DNA from: Saccostrea cucullata
Lineage: Eukaryota
Assembly (NCBI RefSeq): GCF_032062105.1
Contig: NW_026936238.1
Span: 1-64,000 of the forward strand
Length of the DNA: 64,000 nucleotides
Direction of reading: 5' to 3'
Each line of letters starts with the position of its first letter. Positions within the stretch are counted from its first letter, which is position 1. Made by a program: the position numbers. Positions 1-59,900 of the stretch are shown here, in pieces.

Positions 1-3000
1 CTGTATTAGTGTTGGGTGATGTTACCTGTATTAGTGTTGATGATGTTACCTGTATAAGTGTGATGATATTACCTGAATAAGTGTTGATGATGTTACCTGT
101 ATTAGTGTTGGGCGATGTTACCTGTATTAGTGTTGGGTGATGTTACCTGTATTAGTGTTGGATGATATTACCTGTATAAGTGTTGGATGGTATTACCTGT
201 ATTAGTGTTGGATGATGTTACCTGTATTAGTGTTGGGTGATGTTACCTGTATTAGTGTTGGGTGATGTTACCTGTATTAGTGTTGGGTGTTGTTACCTGT
301 ATTAGTGTTGGATGATATTACCTGTATTAGTGTTGATGATGTTACCTGTATAAGTGTTGATGATATTACCTGAATAAGTGTTGGATGATATTACCTGTAT
401 TAGTGTTAGGCGATGTTACCTGTATTAGTGTTGGATGATATTACATGTATTAGTGTTGGGTGTTGTTACCTGTATTAGTGTTGGGTGATATTACCTGTAT
501 TAGTGTTGATGTTATGAGTGTTGGAATACCTGTATTAGTGTTGGATGATGTTACCTGTATTAGTGTTGGATGATATTACCTGTATAAGTGTTGGGTGATG
601 TTACCTGTATTAGTGTTGGATGATAATACCTGTATTAGTGTTGGATGATATTACCTGTATAAGTGTTGGATGATATTACCTGTATAAGTGTTGGATGATG
701 TTACCTGTATTAGTGTTGGATGATATTATTGTTACCTTTATTAGTGTTGGATGATGTTACTTGTATTATTGTTGGATGATATTACCTGTATAAGTGTTGG
801 ATGATATTACCTGTATAAGTGATGGATGATATTACCTGTATAAGTGTTGGATGATATTACCTGTATTAGTGTTGGGTGGTCTGGCCACTCCTGTTGAAGT
901 TCTCTTACTCTGACCATCAGTCTCTGTAGTATAGGAACACACTGAATGACCTCTGACAAGTTAGGGTCACGGTAAACATCATAACCCTGGTGATGATTTC
1001 TCAGCCTGATTATCATATACAGACTTATGTCCTCTTGTAGTGTCTGACTGGCCACCAGGTGGCTTCCTAATGTCTGCCTTTCTACTTCTGACACTGTCGA
1101 GAAGAGAAAAAATGAAATTACGAATGTATGTATGTATATGTTTGACTGTATCACTTATTGAGATGAAATCTGTTCTTACTTAGGTTATCAAGTGTCTTTA
1201 TTGTTTTTTTAACATAAGATTAAACTTACAGTTCCACTGCCCTCTAAACAAAGGTGCAGCAATGCTATAGCACAACAATGAGGGCTCTGTGATATCCTTG
1301 GTCATGACCTCTGTCACATGACTTTGTTGTAGCCAATCAGAGGAGGACAGACTTGAGAACAGTAGCTGGTGGGTGTGGCTTACAGCTGCCACTTCCCTGT
1401 CAGTCACTCTCTGGGATGCGTCATCTATTTCCGGTTCCAAAGGCTCAGATAAACCAGTGTCTTCCAGAGAGTAGGGTGTCATCAAGTCTTGGAAATCCTA
1501 TCAAAAGAAAAACACATAGCAAAAATTCAGTAGGATTGAATACACATTTTACATATTTTAAGATAACAAAATCTCAAACCTTTCACATTCTGTAGACACC
1601 TATTACAATATAGTTCTGTACAATGACACGCTGATCTACATGTTGAAAATCTTATTTTCTTTCATGATTTTTTTTTTTTTGTATTTTGAAGACAAATTTC
1701 AACCTCAGTCCAGGCCACCCTGACTAACCTGCTGAAAGGAGGGAAAGTTCTGTCTGAATTCCTCCTCCTCTATCACATCATTGTCTCTGTCATCGCCGTG
1801 GAGATTTGTCTTGTATTTATATAGACCCTCATCAGCCTCTTTCTGACGTCGTATCTCCTCCTGATGTTTCCATGACAACACAAAACGATTGAAGATTTGG
1901 TGCAGAGACATCAGAATCTCTCTATTTAATTCTTTTCTCATCATGGCTGAGTTCCGCAGTAAAAACAATGCACCAAGGTAAAGTCTGAAAGAGGAAGGGA
2001 TAGAACGTAACATATTAGAACCAGCATGATATAGTTTAATTTATTATACTTTCATGTTAAATACTAAAATCTGATTGGTTTAGACGCAGGTAACAATCCG
2101 TTCGATTACCCTGAGCCTTAGCAACATACGTGACAACGGGTAACACAACGGTAATGCCACATGCGTGGAAATTATGCGCGTACGGTTCACCGTAGAATTC
2201 TCAAAACGTCAGTTGCGCGTTTGAAAGAACCGGAATTATCTTGACGTCAATAAAAGCTTGCTTGCGATAAAGCTTACTTTAAAACAACAAACGACAGACG
2301 ATACATGCTTTGCCAGTGTAGGAAACATGCTTGCGAGCCAGAAATAACGAACCTTATAACCTGATAAATGACTCGAATTCGAGTATCAAACAAACAATAA
2401 GGAGATTAGTGAACCGGTGAGTGTGAAAGCTTTCTATGCATGAGCGTAAAGACGATCGACGGTTTTTTTTCGCTGACGTCCTAAATCAATAAGACATTCA
2501 GTATAATAAAATAAATGGTGCCTGTTTTGTAGGGTAACATTTGAAATTGACACCCCTCGGAAAACCATTGTCAACCTCCGCTGACGCGTCGGTTGACAAT
2601 GGTTTTGCTTGGGGTGCCAATTTAATCTGTTACCCTCCAAAAAAGGCACCATTTATATAATATTATAGTCCTCTCCTCAACCAATGAAAATTCAACACTT
2701 TTCTATAAAGGCAGAAAACAAATAACTACACATTTACCTTGAAGTTTGCTCTGTCCCGTTCTCCTCCACCTGACCCCTACAACCAGACACCAGTCTCTCT
2801 ACTAACAGGATTTTCTGAGCTAGCTTCCAACTGCTGAATACATCTGATGAAATGAACGGGAACTTTACCAACAGATGAGCTGCTTCCCTGATGTGACCAA
2901 CTGTCTCATGGACCTTGAGAGCAAAATATATATTTATAAATTTATATTTCTGAGAAATTCACAATAACTAGGTGAAAATTGAACCCAATTTTTAATTTGA

Positions 3001-56900: not shown

Positions 56901-59900
56901 CCTCCAGCTGACCAAAAAATTAATTAAACGATTATTTTATTTTGAAATAATCTTTATCTAATTTTGAACATGAAATTATTCATCAATAGCAGAAAGTAAA
57001 TTCCAGAATTTTTAAAAACATAAATTTCTATGTTTTTCATGTGAACGTATTCAGTACTTTTTCTTACCTCCCTTTGTTTTAGCTGTAGTTTGATCTGTGT
57101 CTTAACCACTGGATCAACAGGTGACCTTGGTTTGTGGAGGAGCATGCCCAGTAGACCTACATACACCCACTGTCTTCCTACTGTTCTCATATCAGCCTCA
57201 TCATCAGAAACGGCAAGTATTCCACTCAAACACTCCCTTACTATAAATAGATCAGGCCCCATAACTCCATTCAGGAGGTTTGTTATGGTTTGGATTATTT
57301 GCTCACTGTTCGAATGAGAGGTATCTTTGTTTTGGAGGCAGTTGATGAACTCAGACACACTCTGTTTGTATTTGTCCTCTGCTTCCTTGGATTTAAACAT
57401 TGCCACAGTGGAGTGAAGTATTGATACAAACACTTGGACGATGTGCTGTCTCAAAAGTATCCTTAAAGGACAACAAATGAAATTGTATATTTTTATCATT
57501 AAGGCCACACCAATAAATTTTTTTGTTCGTCAGACCAGCGCGCTCGTATTTAAACAAAACTATACAAATAATATTAATTTAAAAACCCCACACCATGGGA
57601 ATTCTCTGTTGTTTTGTGTTCTATTTCTGCTCTATTTATCGTACTTTTAACCTACTTACTCTGCAAATCAGAAAAAATATAATTCTCTGCTCAATTTTTT
57701 TCAAACATAAAACTTTTACCTACAATAAAGTTATAATATTATTATTTTACCACTAGCCCGCTCGTACTTTCTTCATTAAATGTCCGACAAACAAGAAATT
57801 AAATTAGTGAATCTTAAAATCATTTTACTGACTTTCTCTAAATTCATGTGAATACACACAACATCAAAATTAAAACTGACCTAGTCTGAAGATTCCCTTT
57901 ACAGAGCATTGAGCCTTGAGACCAGATGTGCTGTGACAGGATCTGTAGTTTGTGTAGCCTTGATTTTAAGTCTCTCAGAGGTACATCAACAGTAAGATGT
58001 CTGTCCTGTGATGACCTTTGTGTTTCCTCAGATTTTCCACACATCAGGTGGTAGGCAGTCTTACTTAATACTGCCTTGTAAAGACTTTTTGGGCCCTAAA
58101 ACATACAGTTTATGTGATAAACAACATGAAACCAGAAGTCTCTGTCGAGACTGTAGCTCTACTGGTTTATACTTAAAACAAAGGCAGAGAAAAGAAGCAG
58201 TTGTGACTTGAGACTTCAAAACAGCAATCAGTAGAAAAACTAGAGCAAAGCTCGTTGCAAAGCAACGAGTAGGTCTTCCGTCCTGTTTGACCGGAAGTAA
58301 CTTTCATTTTTAATAAATATGTGAAACAACGCCCAAAAATGGTTTGAATCCTCTAAATCCATATCAAAAAATTCAAAAATAAGCCATTTTCTGCTACTTC
58401 CGGTTTGACCGGAAGTGACGACGACGGACGGAAAATTAATTTAAATGCTCCCAGAGACTTATATTACAAAAAAACCTGTAAAGAACGGCAAAATTATGCG
58501 TTTACCGATTACTTCCGGTTTGGTCGGAAGTGACAACGTCGGACGTATTTTGACGACTTTAATAGATCAAGCTTGACATTTTGAACAACTTTGCTTCTTT
58601 TACGTATCACAAATTCTCAATACTTTTTGAGATAGAAAGGAAAAACTTTCGGTCCCTCCTGGCCCCTTATTTCAAGGGCCAGCCCTTTTTTTGAGATGTC
58701 ATTTGAAAGATCTTCAAATTCTACACCTTTTTTGTTCTACATGCTTTAACAAAATATTTTCAGGTAAAAAGTTTTCGTATAAAAGGTGCTAAAAATTTTG
58801 AAATTCTTGATAGGACTATTTTCGGGCCATAGCGAGAGTCGGCGCTTCGTACTTCCGGTAGTTTTGATATACTTAGTGCACTTCTCCAAAGGTTGCTCTA
58901 AGCATCACTGAAAATTTCATGCTTCTGTGTTAAGTGCTTTTTAAGAAAACTGCCGGACTAAGTGACCCTCTAAAAATCACTAAATCGCAGAAATCTCCGG
59001 ACCGGAAGTGACGTCATCAAAATAAAAAAATATATATCTAGATTTTTTGGTGTTCTATCAGACCTGAAAGTTTCATGAAAATCGATCGAGCCGTTCTCGA
59101 GAAATCGTGCGCACAAAATCGGTAAGAAAAAAAAACAATAATAAAAATAGTGGAAAAGAAACCTAAGAAAAACAATAAGGTCTTCCGTTGAAGACGGAAG
59201 ATTTTAATGATCCTTATCACCCATCAAAATAAAAACAGATGCAAAAAATTATGTATCATAAGTATAAGTCACATTATCCAGCGATGGGGTACACGATGCG
59301 AAACTGATGCGTATTTTGATGAAAATGGCGTGGTTGCCGACCGGGTACCACTAGTGATCAGACGGTGACTGAGGCCATTTTGCAAATCGGTGGGGTCATC
59401 AGTAGGAAATAAATCGTAGTTAAAAATCAGCTATGTCTCCAACGATGCCTCACATTGCTCCTCATCGACAACCCATCATTAAGACGTCTTTCAAGGATTG
59501 GCCGATGTATGACCGAGCATCTTCCAATTTCTGTTCAATCTGAGGTCATCGGAGGGTTGAGTGGTGTTCAACAGATAATGGACGATCATCGGTCGATGTT
59601 CGGCCAAACGTTGGCCTGAAGTCGACCTAAGTACAAAAGATGTTCACCAATGTATGAACGATGTAATATACATCAGCGGATTATCCTGGAACATCGTTTT
59701 ATGATTAGCAATGCATCACTGAGCCTTTGTAAGTCTGGCCAGGAACCACACCATTTTCATCATAAAATGCATTGGTTGCCCATCGTATACCTATCGCTGG
59801 ATAATGTGACTGATACTTTAAGGACTACTAGCCAATGATGACCGATGTAGGGGCATCGTTAATACCACGGATTACCACTGATTACCACCGTTCTACGGCT

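What the first reader, a model, noticed from the sequence alone, without database searches (positions are those of the whole stretch)
861..58095. Tandem partial duplication of midasin with both visible copies broken
Seen: copy A has stops at 4620-4622 and 12503-12505 and an apparent phase mismatch between exons 10758-10884 and 10139-10437. Copy B has a stop at 42545-42547 and a truncated exon. The shared exons nonetheless keep their lengths, splice sites and mostly conservative or synonymous changes, while the introns have acquired different TEs. Established: MDN1/Rea1 is an essential 60S biogenesis AAA-ATPase and is normally single-copy. Inference: a third intact copy exists (a longer tandem array), the lesions are recent or haplotype-specific, or some are base errors.
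Basis: partly seen in the sequence, partly recalled or inferred. Interest (0 to 1): 0.7.

Follow-up and report, generated by a model that had tools for sequence, protein, structure and literature searches.

The report
Partial tandem midasin duplication in oyster
This oyster contig holds the back half of the essential ribosome-assembly gene midasin followed by a second, front-truncated copy of its middle part; each copy carries a few gene-breaking changes, yet both were clearly kept as working coding sequence until recently, so this is an ordinary lineage-specific gene duplication with an open question about which copy works.

Summary
The window is oyster DNA, not human. It matches two Saccostrea cucullata RefSeq models. 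All midasin exons lie on the minus strand.

Copy B (58095 to 14771) is not a partial copy at its 3' end. Its 45 exons follow S. echinata midasin residues 2917-5351 through the MIDAS domain to the stop codon.

Copy A starts 1.65 kb downstream of B's stop. It has two decayed remnants (13113-12482), then 16 clean exons (11926 to 861, residues 2411-3603). It runs off the window in a 25-bp satellite.

Confirmed:
- A's TAA at 4620-4622 and at 12503-12505.
- B's TAA at 42545-42547.
- B's truncated exon: about 63 of 234 bp are left.

Not confirmed: the phase mismatch. With the donor after 10751 the two exons join in frame.

New findings:
- A has a -1/-2 indel pair (1022-990).
- B has a 2-residue insertion in an invariant MIDAS segment.

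A and B differ with dS 0.22 and dN/dS 0.26. Their amino-acid changes are symmetric, and each has one stop where neutrality predicts 16 and 33. The duplication is therefore real and post-dates the split from S. echinata, and the lesions are recent, allele-specific or errors. A third copy is neither shown nor excluded.

The parts
14771..58095 (-). Copy B: 45 exons plus the remnant of one more, matching S. echinata midasin residues 2917-5351 (linker, D/E-rich region, MIDAS/VWA domain, TGA stop at 14771-14773). The gene continues upstream beyond 64000.
   Evidence: tblastn with P0161. Junction solver. Exon table with AG/GT sites: 90% identity to S. echinata over 1655 sites downstream of the duplicated block. 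Last exon and stop.
53464..58095 (-). B's part of the duplicated block visible in the window: exons 58095-57881, 57461-57068, 56907-56716, remnant 56628-56566, 55349-55260, 55114-54939, 54809-54554, 54286-54019, 53699-53464.
   Evidence: RefSeq model P0002 matches 58095-56716 at 92-98%.
56566..56715 (-). B lesion 1. A second copy of the preceding exon's last 10 bases plus donor (56661-56623), then about 63 bp left of a 234-bp exon. A phase-0 AG would allow a 57-bp exon (56622-56566), losing 59 codons. Skipping the remnant loses 78 codons in frame.
   Evidence: Pairwise alignment. Sequence read-out. No homology-preserving junction found.
42545..42547 (-). B lesion 2. In-frame TAA in exon 42589-42403 where S. 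echinata has Ser. It could be bypassed only through weak, purine-rich AG sites that start the exon at 42541 or 42535.
22241..22421 (-). B exon holding the MIDAS motif (DDSSSM). It carries a 2-residue insertion (VTL for T, 22327-22319) in WLRRTKPSKR.
   Evidence: phmmer to yeast Rea1 5jcs_s residues 4665-4718, E 1.3e-22. Comparison with S. echinata.
12482..13113 (-). Decayed 5' end of copy A. Remnant of residues 2243-2260 with a stop (13113-13060). Remnant of 2351-2377 with a frameshift and the stop at 12503-12505 (12566-12482). The probable duplication breakpoint is near 13113, inside an exon.
   Evidence: The neighbouring reference segments, about 90% conserved among oysters, are undetectable in A.
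861..11926 (-). Preserved part of copy A: 16 exons for residues 2411-3603. Exons: 11926-11632, 11492-11319, 11167-11034, 10884-10751, 10437-10139, 9947-9601, 9209-9057, 4805-4591, 4468-4075, 3900-3709, 3557-3324, 3141-3052, 2913-2738, 1984-1729, 1497-1230, 1093-861.
   Evidence: 7 of 7 upstream junctions solved in frame. Exon table. RefSeq model P0001 matches 4470-861.
4620..4622 (-). A lesion 1: TAA in place of Ser (TCA in B). RefSeq model P0001 starts at the Met right after it.
990..1022 (-). A lesion 2: a 1-bp and a 2-bp deletion 33 bases apart. Thirteen residues read out of frame (ISLYMIIRLRNHH, where B has ITPVYDNQAEKSSP and S. echinata ITPVYDNQAEKASP), after which the frame is restored.
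1..875 (-). 25-bp satellite made of the last exon's end plus its 5' splice site. The window starts inside it, so A's continuation is unseen. The same unit follows the matching exon of B (53344-53478 and 51469-52003).
11034..11167 (-). A exon whose acceptor (exon start 11167) is used, one base out of frame, as the terminal exon of RefSeq model P0002 (KGARRFLM*). That model therefore joins B's donor at 56716 to copy A.
   Evidence: for the acceptor.
6028..7743 (+). Nested intronless B-box/TRIM-like ORF (571 aa) in the intron before A's exon 4805-4591. Its partner in B is at 61369-62847 (492 aa). It belongs to the duplicated segment.
   Evidence: Pfam zf-B_box E 4e-09 and 3e-10. 80% DNA identity. 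69% protein identity.

Best explanation
This is a real tandem segmental duplication in the Saccostrea cucullata lineage. It copied the midasin gene from inside an exon near residue 2243 to beyond its 3' end.

Copy B is the 3' part of the parental, full-length gene. Its 5' half lies outside the window.

Copy A is the downstream duplicate. It lost its promoter and AAA+ ring at birth, and its first exons next to the breakpoint have decayed.

From residue 2411 onward, both copies stayed under purifying selection for nearly all of the time since the split.

The disabling changes seen now are few and young:
- A: one TAA and a compensated frameshift.
- B: one TAA, one exon truncated beside a duplicated splice donor, and a 2-residue MIDAS insertion.

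They are recent decay, null alleles carried on the sequenced haplotype, or in part sequence errors.

Shown: the layout, the lesions, the constraint statistics and the A+B sister relation. Inferred: the tandem-duplication mechanism, that B is the working gene, and the age of the lesions.
For: Layout: B runs colinearly to the stop codon and A begins 1.65 kb further on. There are no Ns in the window.

A and B are sisters relative to S. echinata. Over 586 sites in the eight in-window exons: A=B differing from S. echinata 48, A=S only 28, B=S only 27. Polarised by outgroups, 19 changes are shared-derived in A+B, against 5 and 4 for the other groupings. Three further exons, with B taken from P0002, give 28/17/17.

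Constraint:
- dS 0.219, dN 0.056, omega 0.258 (bootstrap 0.18-0.36) over 589 codons, summed exon by exon.
- If one copy had been neutral since the split, the pairwise omega should be at least about 0.5 (inference).
- Simulated neutral drift at 0.11 per site gives 16 stops in A (95% 9-24) and 33 in B (22-46). One is observed in each.

Exon structure:
- B: 39 of 45 junction tests reproduce the S. echinata sequence with canonical sites. Two of the six failures were my anchor artefacts, resolved. Two lie in the poorly alignable D/E-rich part. Two are the real lesions.
- A: 7 of 7 junctions are clean.

B keeps the DxSxS MIDAS motif.

The divergence (7-18% in alignable intron and exon DNA) is far above allelic levels (the allelic level is from my own knowledge).
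Against: - As assembled, both copies would give truncated proteins, and midasin is essential (established knowledge). The picture is incomplete without another functional allele or copy.
- A 5'-truncated copy without a known promoter should not be under selection, yet A is as constrained as B. I cannot explain that.
- The B lineage has 48 unique amino-acid changes against 21 in S. echinata over 1655 non-duplicated sites (p 0.001). In the duplicated block the counts are 18 against 9 (p 0.08). This suggests some relaxation in B.
- B has an insertion in a segment that is identical in yeast Rea1 and S. echinata.
- dS varies from 0.09 to 0.75 between exons, and one exon has omega 0.97. The history is therefore mosaic, possibly through gene conversion.
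- The contig is only 70,309 bp according to the protein table, so assembly quality here is uncertain.
Confidence: 0.55

Rival explanations
1. Both visible copies are dead pseudogenes on a small unplaced contig. The working midasin is a third copy elsewhere in the genome, perhaps in a longer tandem array.
For: - Each copy has disabling lesions.
- B has an insertion in an invariant MIDAS segment.
- The B lineage evolves about 2.3 times faster than S. echinata (48 versus 21 unique changes).
- RefSeq could not build a long model here (521 and 624 aa).
- The contig is 70 kb.
Against: - Omega is 0.26, and only one stop is seen per copy against 16 and 33 expected. The copies cannot have been dead for long.
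- No other S. cucullata midasin protein appeared among proteins of 273-2000 aa, 1093-3120 aa or 3003-9555 aa (best 120 of 937 listed, and S. echinata, O. edulis and M. gigas all appear).
- Those were protein searches only. Unannotated DNA was not searched.
Confidence: 0.15
2. Assembly artefact. Either A and B are wrongly joined sequences (haplotypes or a chimeric contig), or the individual lesions are consensus errors and B is a normal intact gene.
For: - The contig is short and ends in a satellite.
- The gene is cut by the contig end.
- Both stop codons are single-base changes. A's is TCA in B against TAA in A. B's replaces a Ser of S. echinata whose codon I could not see.
Against: - dS 0.22 and 7-18% DNA divergence are not allelic.
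- A's 5' end is decayed in the correct order and strand right after B's 3' flank, with no N at the junction.
- The truncated exon, with its 171-bp loss and duplicated donor, and the -1/-2 indel pair are not typical consensus errors.
- Read-level data were not available.
Confidence: 0.12
3. Both 3' modules are used. Transcripts from the single upstream promoter splice either into B's exons or across B into A's exons, as alternative 3' halves or as cross-copy rescue. That would keep A's exons from 11926 onward under selection while A's unusable first exons decay.
For: - There is a sharp boundary between decayed (13113-12482) and preserved (11926 onward) parts of A.
- A and B show equal constraint.
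- RefSeq model P0002 joins B's donor 56716 to A's acceptor at 11167.
- The lesions sit in complementary places: B's exons through 56716 are clean, and A's exons from 3557 on are open.
Against: - The RefSeq join is out of frame and may be an ab initio guess.
- It would need a 45-kb or longer intron that skips a polyadenylation site (signals at 14257 and 14113).
- B's unused exons downstream would then be expected to decay, but they are 90% identical to S. echinata.
- No expression data were seen.
Confidence: 0.06

Closest known systems
Midasin / MDN1 / Rea1 (60S ribosome biogenesis AAA+ ATPase)
   Same: B's exons match S. echinata midasin residues 2917-5351 at 86-90% identity. Its MIDAS exon aligns with yeast Rea1 4665-4718, including DDSxSM. 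A matches residues 2411-3603.
   Different: The N-terminal AAA+ ring is outside the window. The middle part of the gene is present twice. As assembled, both copies are interrupted.
Unprocessed (duplicated) pseudogene from a partial tandem segmental duplication
   Same: A keeps its introns, lacks the 5' half of the gene, starts inside an exon, sits directly downstream of the parent, and carries a stop and indels.
   Different: A does not show neutral evolution. Omega is 0.26, it has as few copy-specific changes as B, and 1 stop against 16 expected. The parent copy B is damaged as well.
Human F7 intron 7 VNTR, whose first 37-bp unit spans the exon 7 / intron 7 boundary (PMC1557585, abstract read)
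   Same: Several arrays in this gene repeat an exon end together with its 5' splice site, leaving many identical pseudo-donors downstream of the authentic one.
   Different: At least five donor arrays and two acceptor-side arrays occur in one gene, with up to 37 copies. One such duplication coincides with the loss of most of an exon in B. Splicing behaviour was not tested here.

Membership tests
Midasin (MDN1/Rea1) | N-terminal ring of six AAA+ modules | not testable with these tools
   In M. gigas midasin the AAA_5 and lid domains lie before residue ~1600. The window starts at residue 2243 (A) and 2917 (B). Only a decayed AAA6-end motif is seen in A.
Midasin (MDN1/Rea1) | Long helical linker homologous to that of other midasins | tested here: met
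   A and B exons align with S. echinata 2411-3605 and with Pinctada and a 5460-aa midasin. There is no Pfam family and no PDB sequence hit for single linker exons.
Midasin (MDN1/Rea1) | D/E-rich region before the C-terminal domain | tested here: met
   B exons 26313-23614 align with S. echinata 4645-5029. About 37 reference residues (4689-4725) were not placed. A: not visible in the window.
Midasin (MDN1/Rea1) | C-terminal MIDAS/VWA domain with a DxSxS motif | tested here: met
   B exon 22421-22241 against yeast Rea1, E 1.3e-22, motif DDSSSM present, with a 2-residue insertion just upstream. Pfam VWA lies at the matching place in Pinctada P0003 (2500-2652). Single exons give no Pfam hit. A: outside the window.
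Midasin (MDN1/Rea1) | One uninterrupted reading frame | tested here: not met
   A: TAA at 4620-4622. B: TAA at 42545-42547 and a truncated exon.
Duplicated (unprocessed) pseudogene | Disabling lesions together with neutral evolution (omega near 1) | tested here: not met
   Lesions are present, but omega is 0.26 (0.18-0.36) and 1 stop is seen per copy against 16 and 33 expected.
False duplication from unmerged haplotypes | Allelic-level divergence, a gap or contig edge at the join, and halved read depth | tested here: inconclusive
   Divergence is 7-18%, dS is 0.22, and there is no N at the join. These speak against it. Read depth could not be tested.

The most novel reading that the evidence does not exclude
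The duplicated 3' modules work together. Midasin mRNA is made by splicing from the shared upstream exons into either module, or from B's clean exons across 45 kb or more into A's clean exons. An essential single-copy gene would then have become dependent on two damaged half-copies, and A would be selected despite having no promoter of its own.
Probability: 0.06. Interest if true: 0.7.

Novelty: new member of a known kind. Interest (0 to 1): 0.3.

Why it matters
Midasin is essential and normally single-copy, so a lineage-specific partial duplication in which both copies stayed under selection is unusual. The practical value is more modest:

- It explains why RefSeq has only two short, odd models here, one of them chimeric between the copies.
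- It warns that oyster assemblies can carry null alleles or unresolved duplicates of essential genes. [quoted passage not shown]
- It shows that the one large structural lesion lies next to a duplicated splice junction, in a gene full of splice-junction minisatellites. That points to a local source of exon loss.

Tried and rejected
Searches that gave nothing
- Pfam on single ORFs and exons gave nothing for midasin parts, only B-box hits for the nested ORFs.
- PDB sequence search with a linker exon: 0 hits.
- Rfam over the window: 0 matches.
- A literature search for an S. cucullata genome paper: 9 papers, none about this assembly.

My own analyses that I dropped
- My first hand analysis of the junction 11632/11492 used codons I had guessed and wrongly suggested a phase problem. 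The solver on the real sequence shows it is clean.
- The 'A' rows were mis-registered and are dropped. The aligned triplets replace them.
- The relative-rate counts were inflated by matches that ran into introns. They are replaced by the exon-bounded counts.

Limits of the searches
- No eukaryotic genome, read or transcript collection was available. Copy number in the whole assembly, read support and expression stayed unchecked.
- The closed collections (metagenome and viral contigs) were not used.

How exons were handled
- Exons were searched one by one.
- dN/dS was summed from per-exon counts.
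Full report
WHAT THE WINDOW IS

The window has 31-41% G+C, no N runs and many satellites. An open frame from 4033-4497 (minus strand) matches two Saccostrea cucullata RefSeq proteins. P0001 is 'midasin-like, partial' (624 aa, 94% identity). P0002 is 'uncharacterized protein LOC134245069' (521 aa, 85% identity). Both are listed on a contig of 70,309 bp.

P0001 maps to 4470-861, with several exons at 100%. P0002 maps to 58095-56716 at 92-98%. The DNA is therefore oyster, not human. 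Exons were searched one at a time. I built no joined spliced model for any search or fold.

REFERENCE AND LAYOUT

A search with a full-length midasin (P0004, residues 3000-5460) gave 937 proteins, of which the best 120 were listed. They include S. echinata midasin-like P0161 (5351 aa), O. edulis P0164 and M. gigas P0162, but no S. cucullata protein.

With P0161 as guide, all midasin exons lie on the minus strand.

Copy B runs from 58095 to 14771 and covers residues 2917-5351. I solved its splice junctions against the reference.
- 39 of 45 junction tests gave canonical, in-frame joins that reproduce the S. echinata sequence.
- Two failures came from my anchors and were settled by eye.
- Two lie in the poorly alignable D/E-rich part.
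- Two are real lesions.

The resulting 45 exons have AG/GT sites. They are 85.5% identical to S. echinata in the duplicated block (599 sites) and 89.9% downstream of it (1655 sites). One listed acceptor was my one-base slip: the exon starts at 28144.

The exon 22421-22241 aligns with yeast Rea1 residues 4665-4718 (E 1.3e-22) and keeps the MIDAS motif. The frame ends at TGA 14771-14773, with polyadenylation signals at 14257 and 14113. B is therefore the complete 3' 45% of a midasin gene, not a partial copy. Its upstream exons lie beyond 64000, since P0002 residues 2-245 find no B match in the window.

Copy A begins 1.65 kb downstream of B's stop.
- Two remnants come first. The piece 13113-13060 matches residues 2243-2260 (10 of 18 identical, with a stop).
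- The piece 12566-12482 matches residues 2351-2377 and carries a frameshift and the stop at 12503-12505.
- The reference segments around the first remnant are about 90% conserved among oysters, yet they cannot be found in A.
- From 11926 down to 861, A has 16 clean exons for residues 2411-3603, all with AG/GT sites.
- A then enters a 25-bp satellite in which the window begins.

Confirmed:
- TAA at 4620-4622 in A. B has TCA there. S. echinata and O. edulis have Ser and M. gigas has Pro.
- The stop at 12503-12505 in A.
- TAA at 42545-42547 in B's exon 42589-42403, where S. echinata has Ser. It can be avoided only through AG sites that start the exon at 42541 or 42535. Those sites have no pyrimidine tract, by my reading.
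- The truncated exon in B. A's exon 3557-3324 (234 bp, 91% identical to S. echinata) has only about 63 bp left in B (56628-56566). The rest, and the intron before it, are replaced by a second copy of the previous exon's end and donor.
- For that remnant, a phase-0 AG would give a 57-bp exon and lose 59 codons. Skipping the remnant loses 78 codons in frame.

Not confirmed:
- The phase mismatch. The donor lies after 10751, not 10758, and the exons join in phase 2 with the expected sequence.

Additional lesions:
- A has a 1-bp and a 2-bp deletion 33 bases apart (1022-990). They put 13 residues out of frame and then restore the frame.
- B has VTL in place of T (22327-22319) in WLRRTKPSKR, a segment identical in yeast Rea1 and S. 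echinata.

Other points checked:
- Exon lengths are otherwise equal in the two copies.
- The introns differ by a foldback element in B (55607-56514) and a hairpin-bearing insertion in A (2506-2661).

HISTORY OF THE COPIES

Counts were made exon by exon and then summed. Over 589 codons, dS is 0.219, dN is 0.056 and omega is 0.258 (bootstrap 0.18-0.36).

With S. echinata as third sequence, over 586 sites:
- A=B but different from S. echinata: 48.
- A=S. echinata only: 28.
- B=S. echinata only: 27.
- All three different: 11.
- Outgroups polarise 19 changes as shared-derived in A+B, against 5 and 4 for the other two groupings.

Three upstream exons, with B taken from P0002, give 28, 17 and 17. The copies therefore split after the S. 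echinata lineage, and they changed at equal rates.

If A had drifted neutrally since the split, pairwise omega should be about 0.5 or more (inference). Simulated drift of 0.11 per site would also give 16 stops in A (95% 9-24) and 33 in B (22-46). One is seen in each. Both coding sequences were therefore maintained for nearly all of their separate history, and the lesions are young, allele-specific or errors.

Points against a simple story:
- dS ranges from 0.09 to 0.75 among exons, and one exon has omega 0.97.
- DNA identity rises from 82% in the middle to 93% at the 3' end of the block. Both observations suggest a mosaic history, perhaps through gene conversion.
- The B lineage has 48 unique changes against 21 in S. 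echinata over the non-duplicated part (p 0.001), and 18 against 9 in the duplicated block (p 0.08).

MOST LIKELY EXPLANATION

A tandem duplication copied the gene from inside an exon near residue 2243 to beyond its 3' end. B is the parental gene's 3' part, and A is a promoter-less duplicate.

This fits the layout, the breakpoint inside an exon, and the decay next to the breakpoint.

It does not explain why A remained constrained. It also does not explain how the animal lives if both lesions in B are real and homozygous.

Possible answers are:
- an intact allele on the other haplotype;
- an unseen third copy;
- consensus errors;
- use of both modules by splicing.

On the last point, RefSeq model P0002 ends with KGARRFLM*. 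That is exactly A's exon starting at acceptor 11167, read one base out of frame. The model therefore joins B's donor at 56716 to copy A. This may be only a prediction artefact.

WHAT STAYED UNCHECKED

The following could not be checked:
- copy number in the whole assembly;
- read depth and read support for each lesion;
- expression;
- the record details of P0001 and P0002 (one search was not available).

No eukaryotic genome, read or transcript collection was on hand.

VERDICT

This is a real, lineage-specific partial tandem duplication of midasin. Interest is modest. The most unusual aspects are the equal constraint on a truncated copy and the splice-junction minisatellites noted in passing.

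Noticed in passing
1-875; 53344-53478 and 51469-52003; 38088-40322; 27051-27294 and 26429-26860; 22488-23116; 28132-29702; 43296-43378: These are minisatellites whose unit is a splice junction of the midasin gene.

Five arrays repeat an exon end plus its 5' splice site:
- 25 bp, 29 copies of CAG|GTAA after A's exon end 861, with the same unit after B's exon end 53464.
- 61 bp x37 after B's exon end 40302, with 34 intact AAG|GTGAGT.
- 42 bp after B's exon end 27265.
- 68 bp after B's exon end 23061, carrying the last ~55 bases of the exon.

Two arrays sit at acceptors:
- 43 bp x36.6, carrying the pyrimidine tract, AG and the first 13 exon bases, before B's exon start 28144.
- 27 bp x3, abutting the AG before B's exon start 43293.

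B's truncated exon lies beside a two-copy case of the same kind (56715-56623).

A single human precedent is the F7 intron 7 VNTR (PMC1557585, abstract read)..
   Followed up: partly
56716 joined to 11167 (minus strand): RefSeq model P0002 (LOC134245069) ends with eight codons and a stop. They are exactly copy A's exon starting at acceptor 11167, read one base out of frame. The public model is therefore a chimera of copy B and copy A across about 45.5 kb.
   Followed up: partly
6028-7743 (+) and 61369-62847 (+): An intronless B-box/TRIM-like ORF is nested on the opposite strand in the same midasin intron of both copies. It is 571 aa in A and 492 aa in B, with 80% DNA and 69% protein identity. 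It has therefore diverged much faster than the midasin exons around it.
   Followed up: partly
22319-22327: Copy B has a 2-residue insertion (VTL for T) in WLRRTKPSKR, just before the MIDAS motif. That segment is identical in yeast Rea1 and S. echinata.
   Followed up: partly
55607-56514; 2506-2661: Copy-specific intron insertions. B has a ~900-bp foldback element with nested inverted arms (140, 49 and 48 nt). A has a 76-nt-arm hairpin inside an A-only stretch of about 600 bp.
   Followed up: no
13566-13993, 59927-60617; 18680-19390; 19998-21021; 47545-48774; 63224-64000: Satellites with 146-162-bp periods lie in introns and at the A/B boundary. The one at 13566-13993, with 13450-13551, has its relatives in B's intron at 58137-60711. 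It is not colinear with the duplication, so it looks like a mobile element family.
   Followed up: no
27956-29658 (minus strand): The 43-bp acceptor array is open in all three minus-strand frames (ORFs of 402, 442 and 551 aa). These long ORFs are repeat artefacts, not genes.
   Followed up: yes
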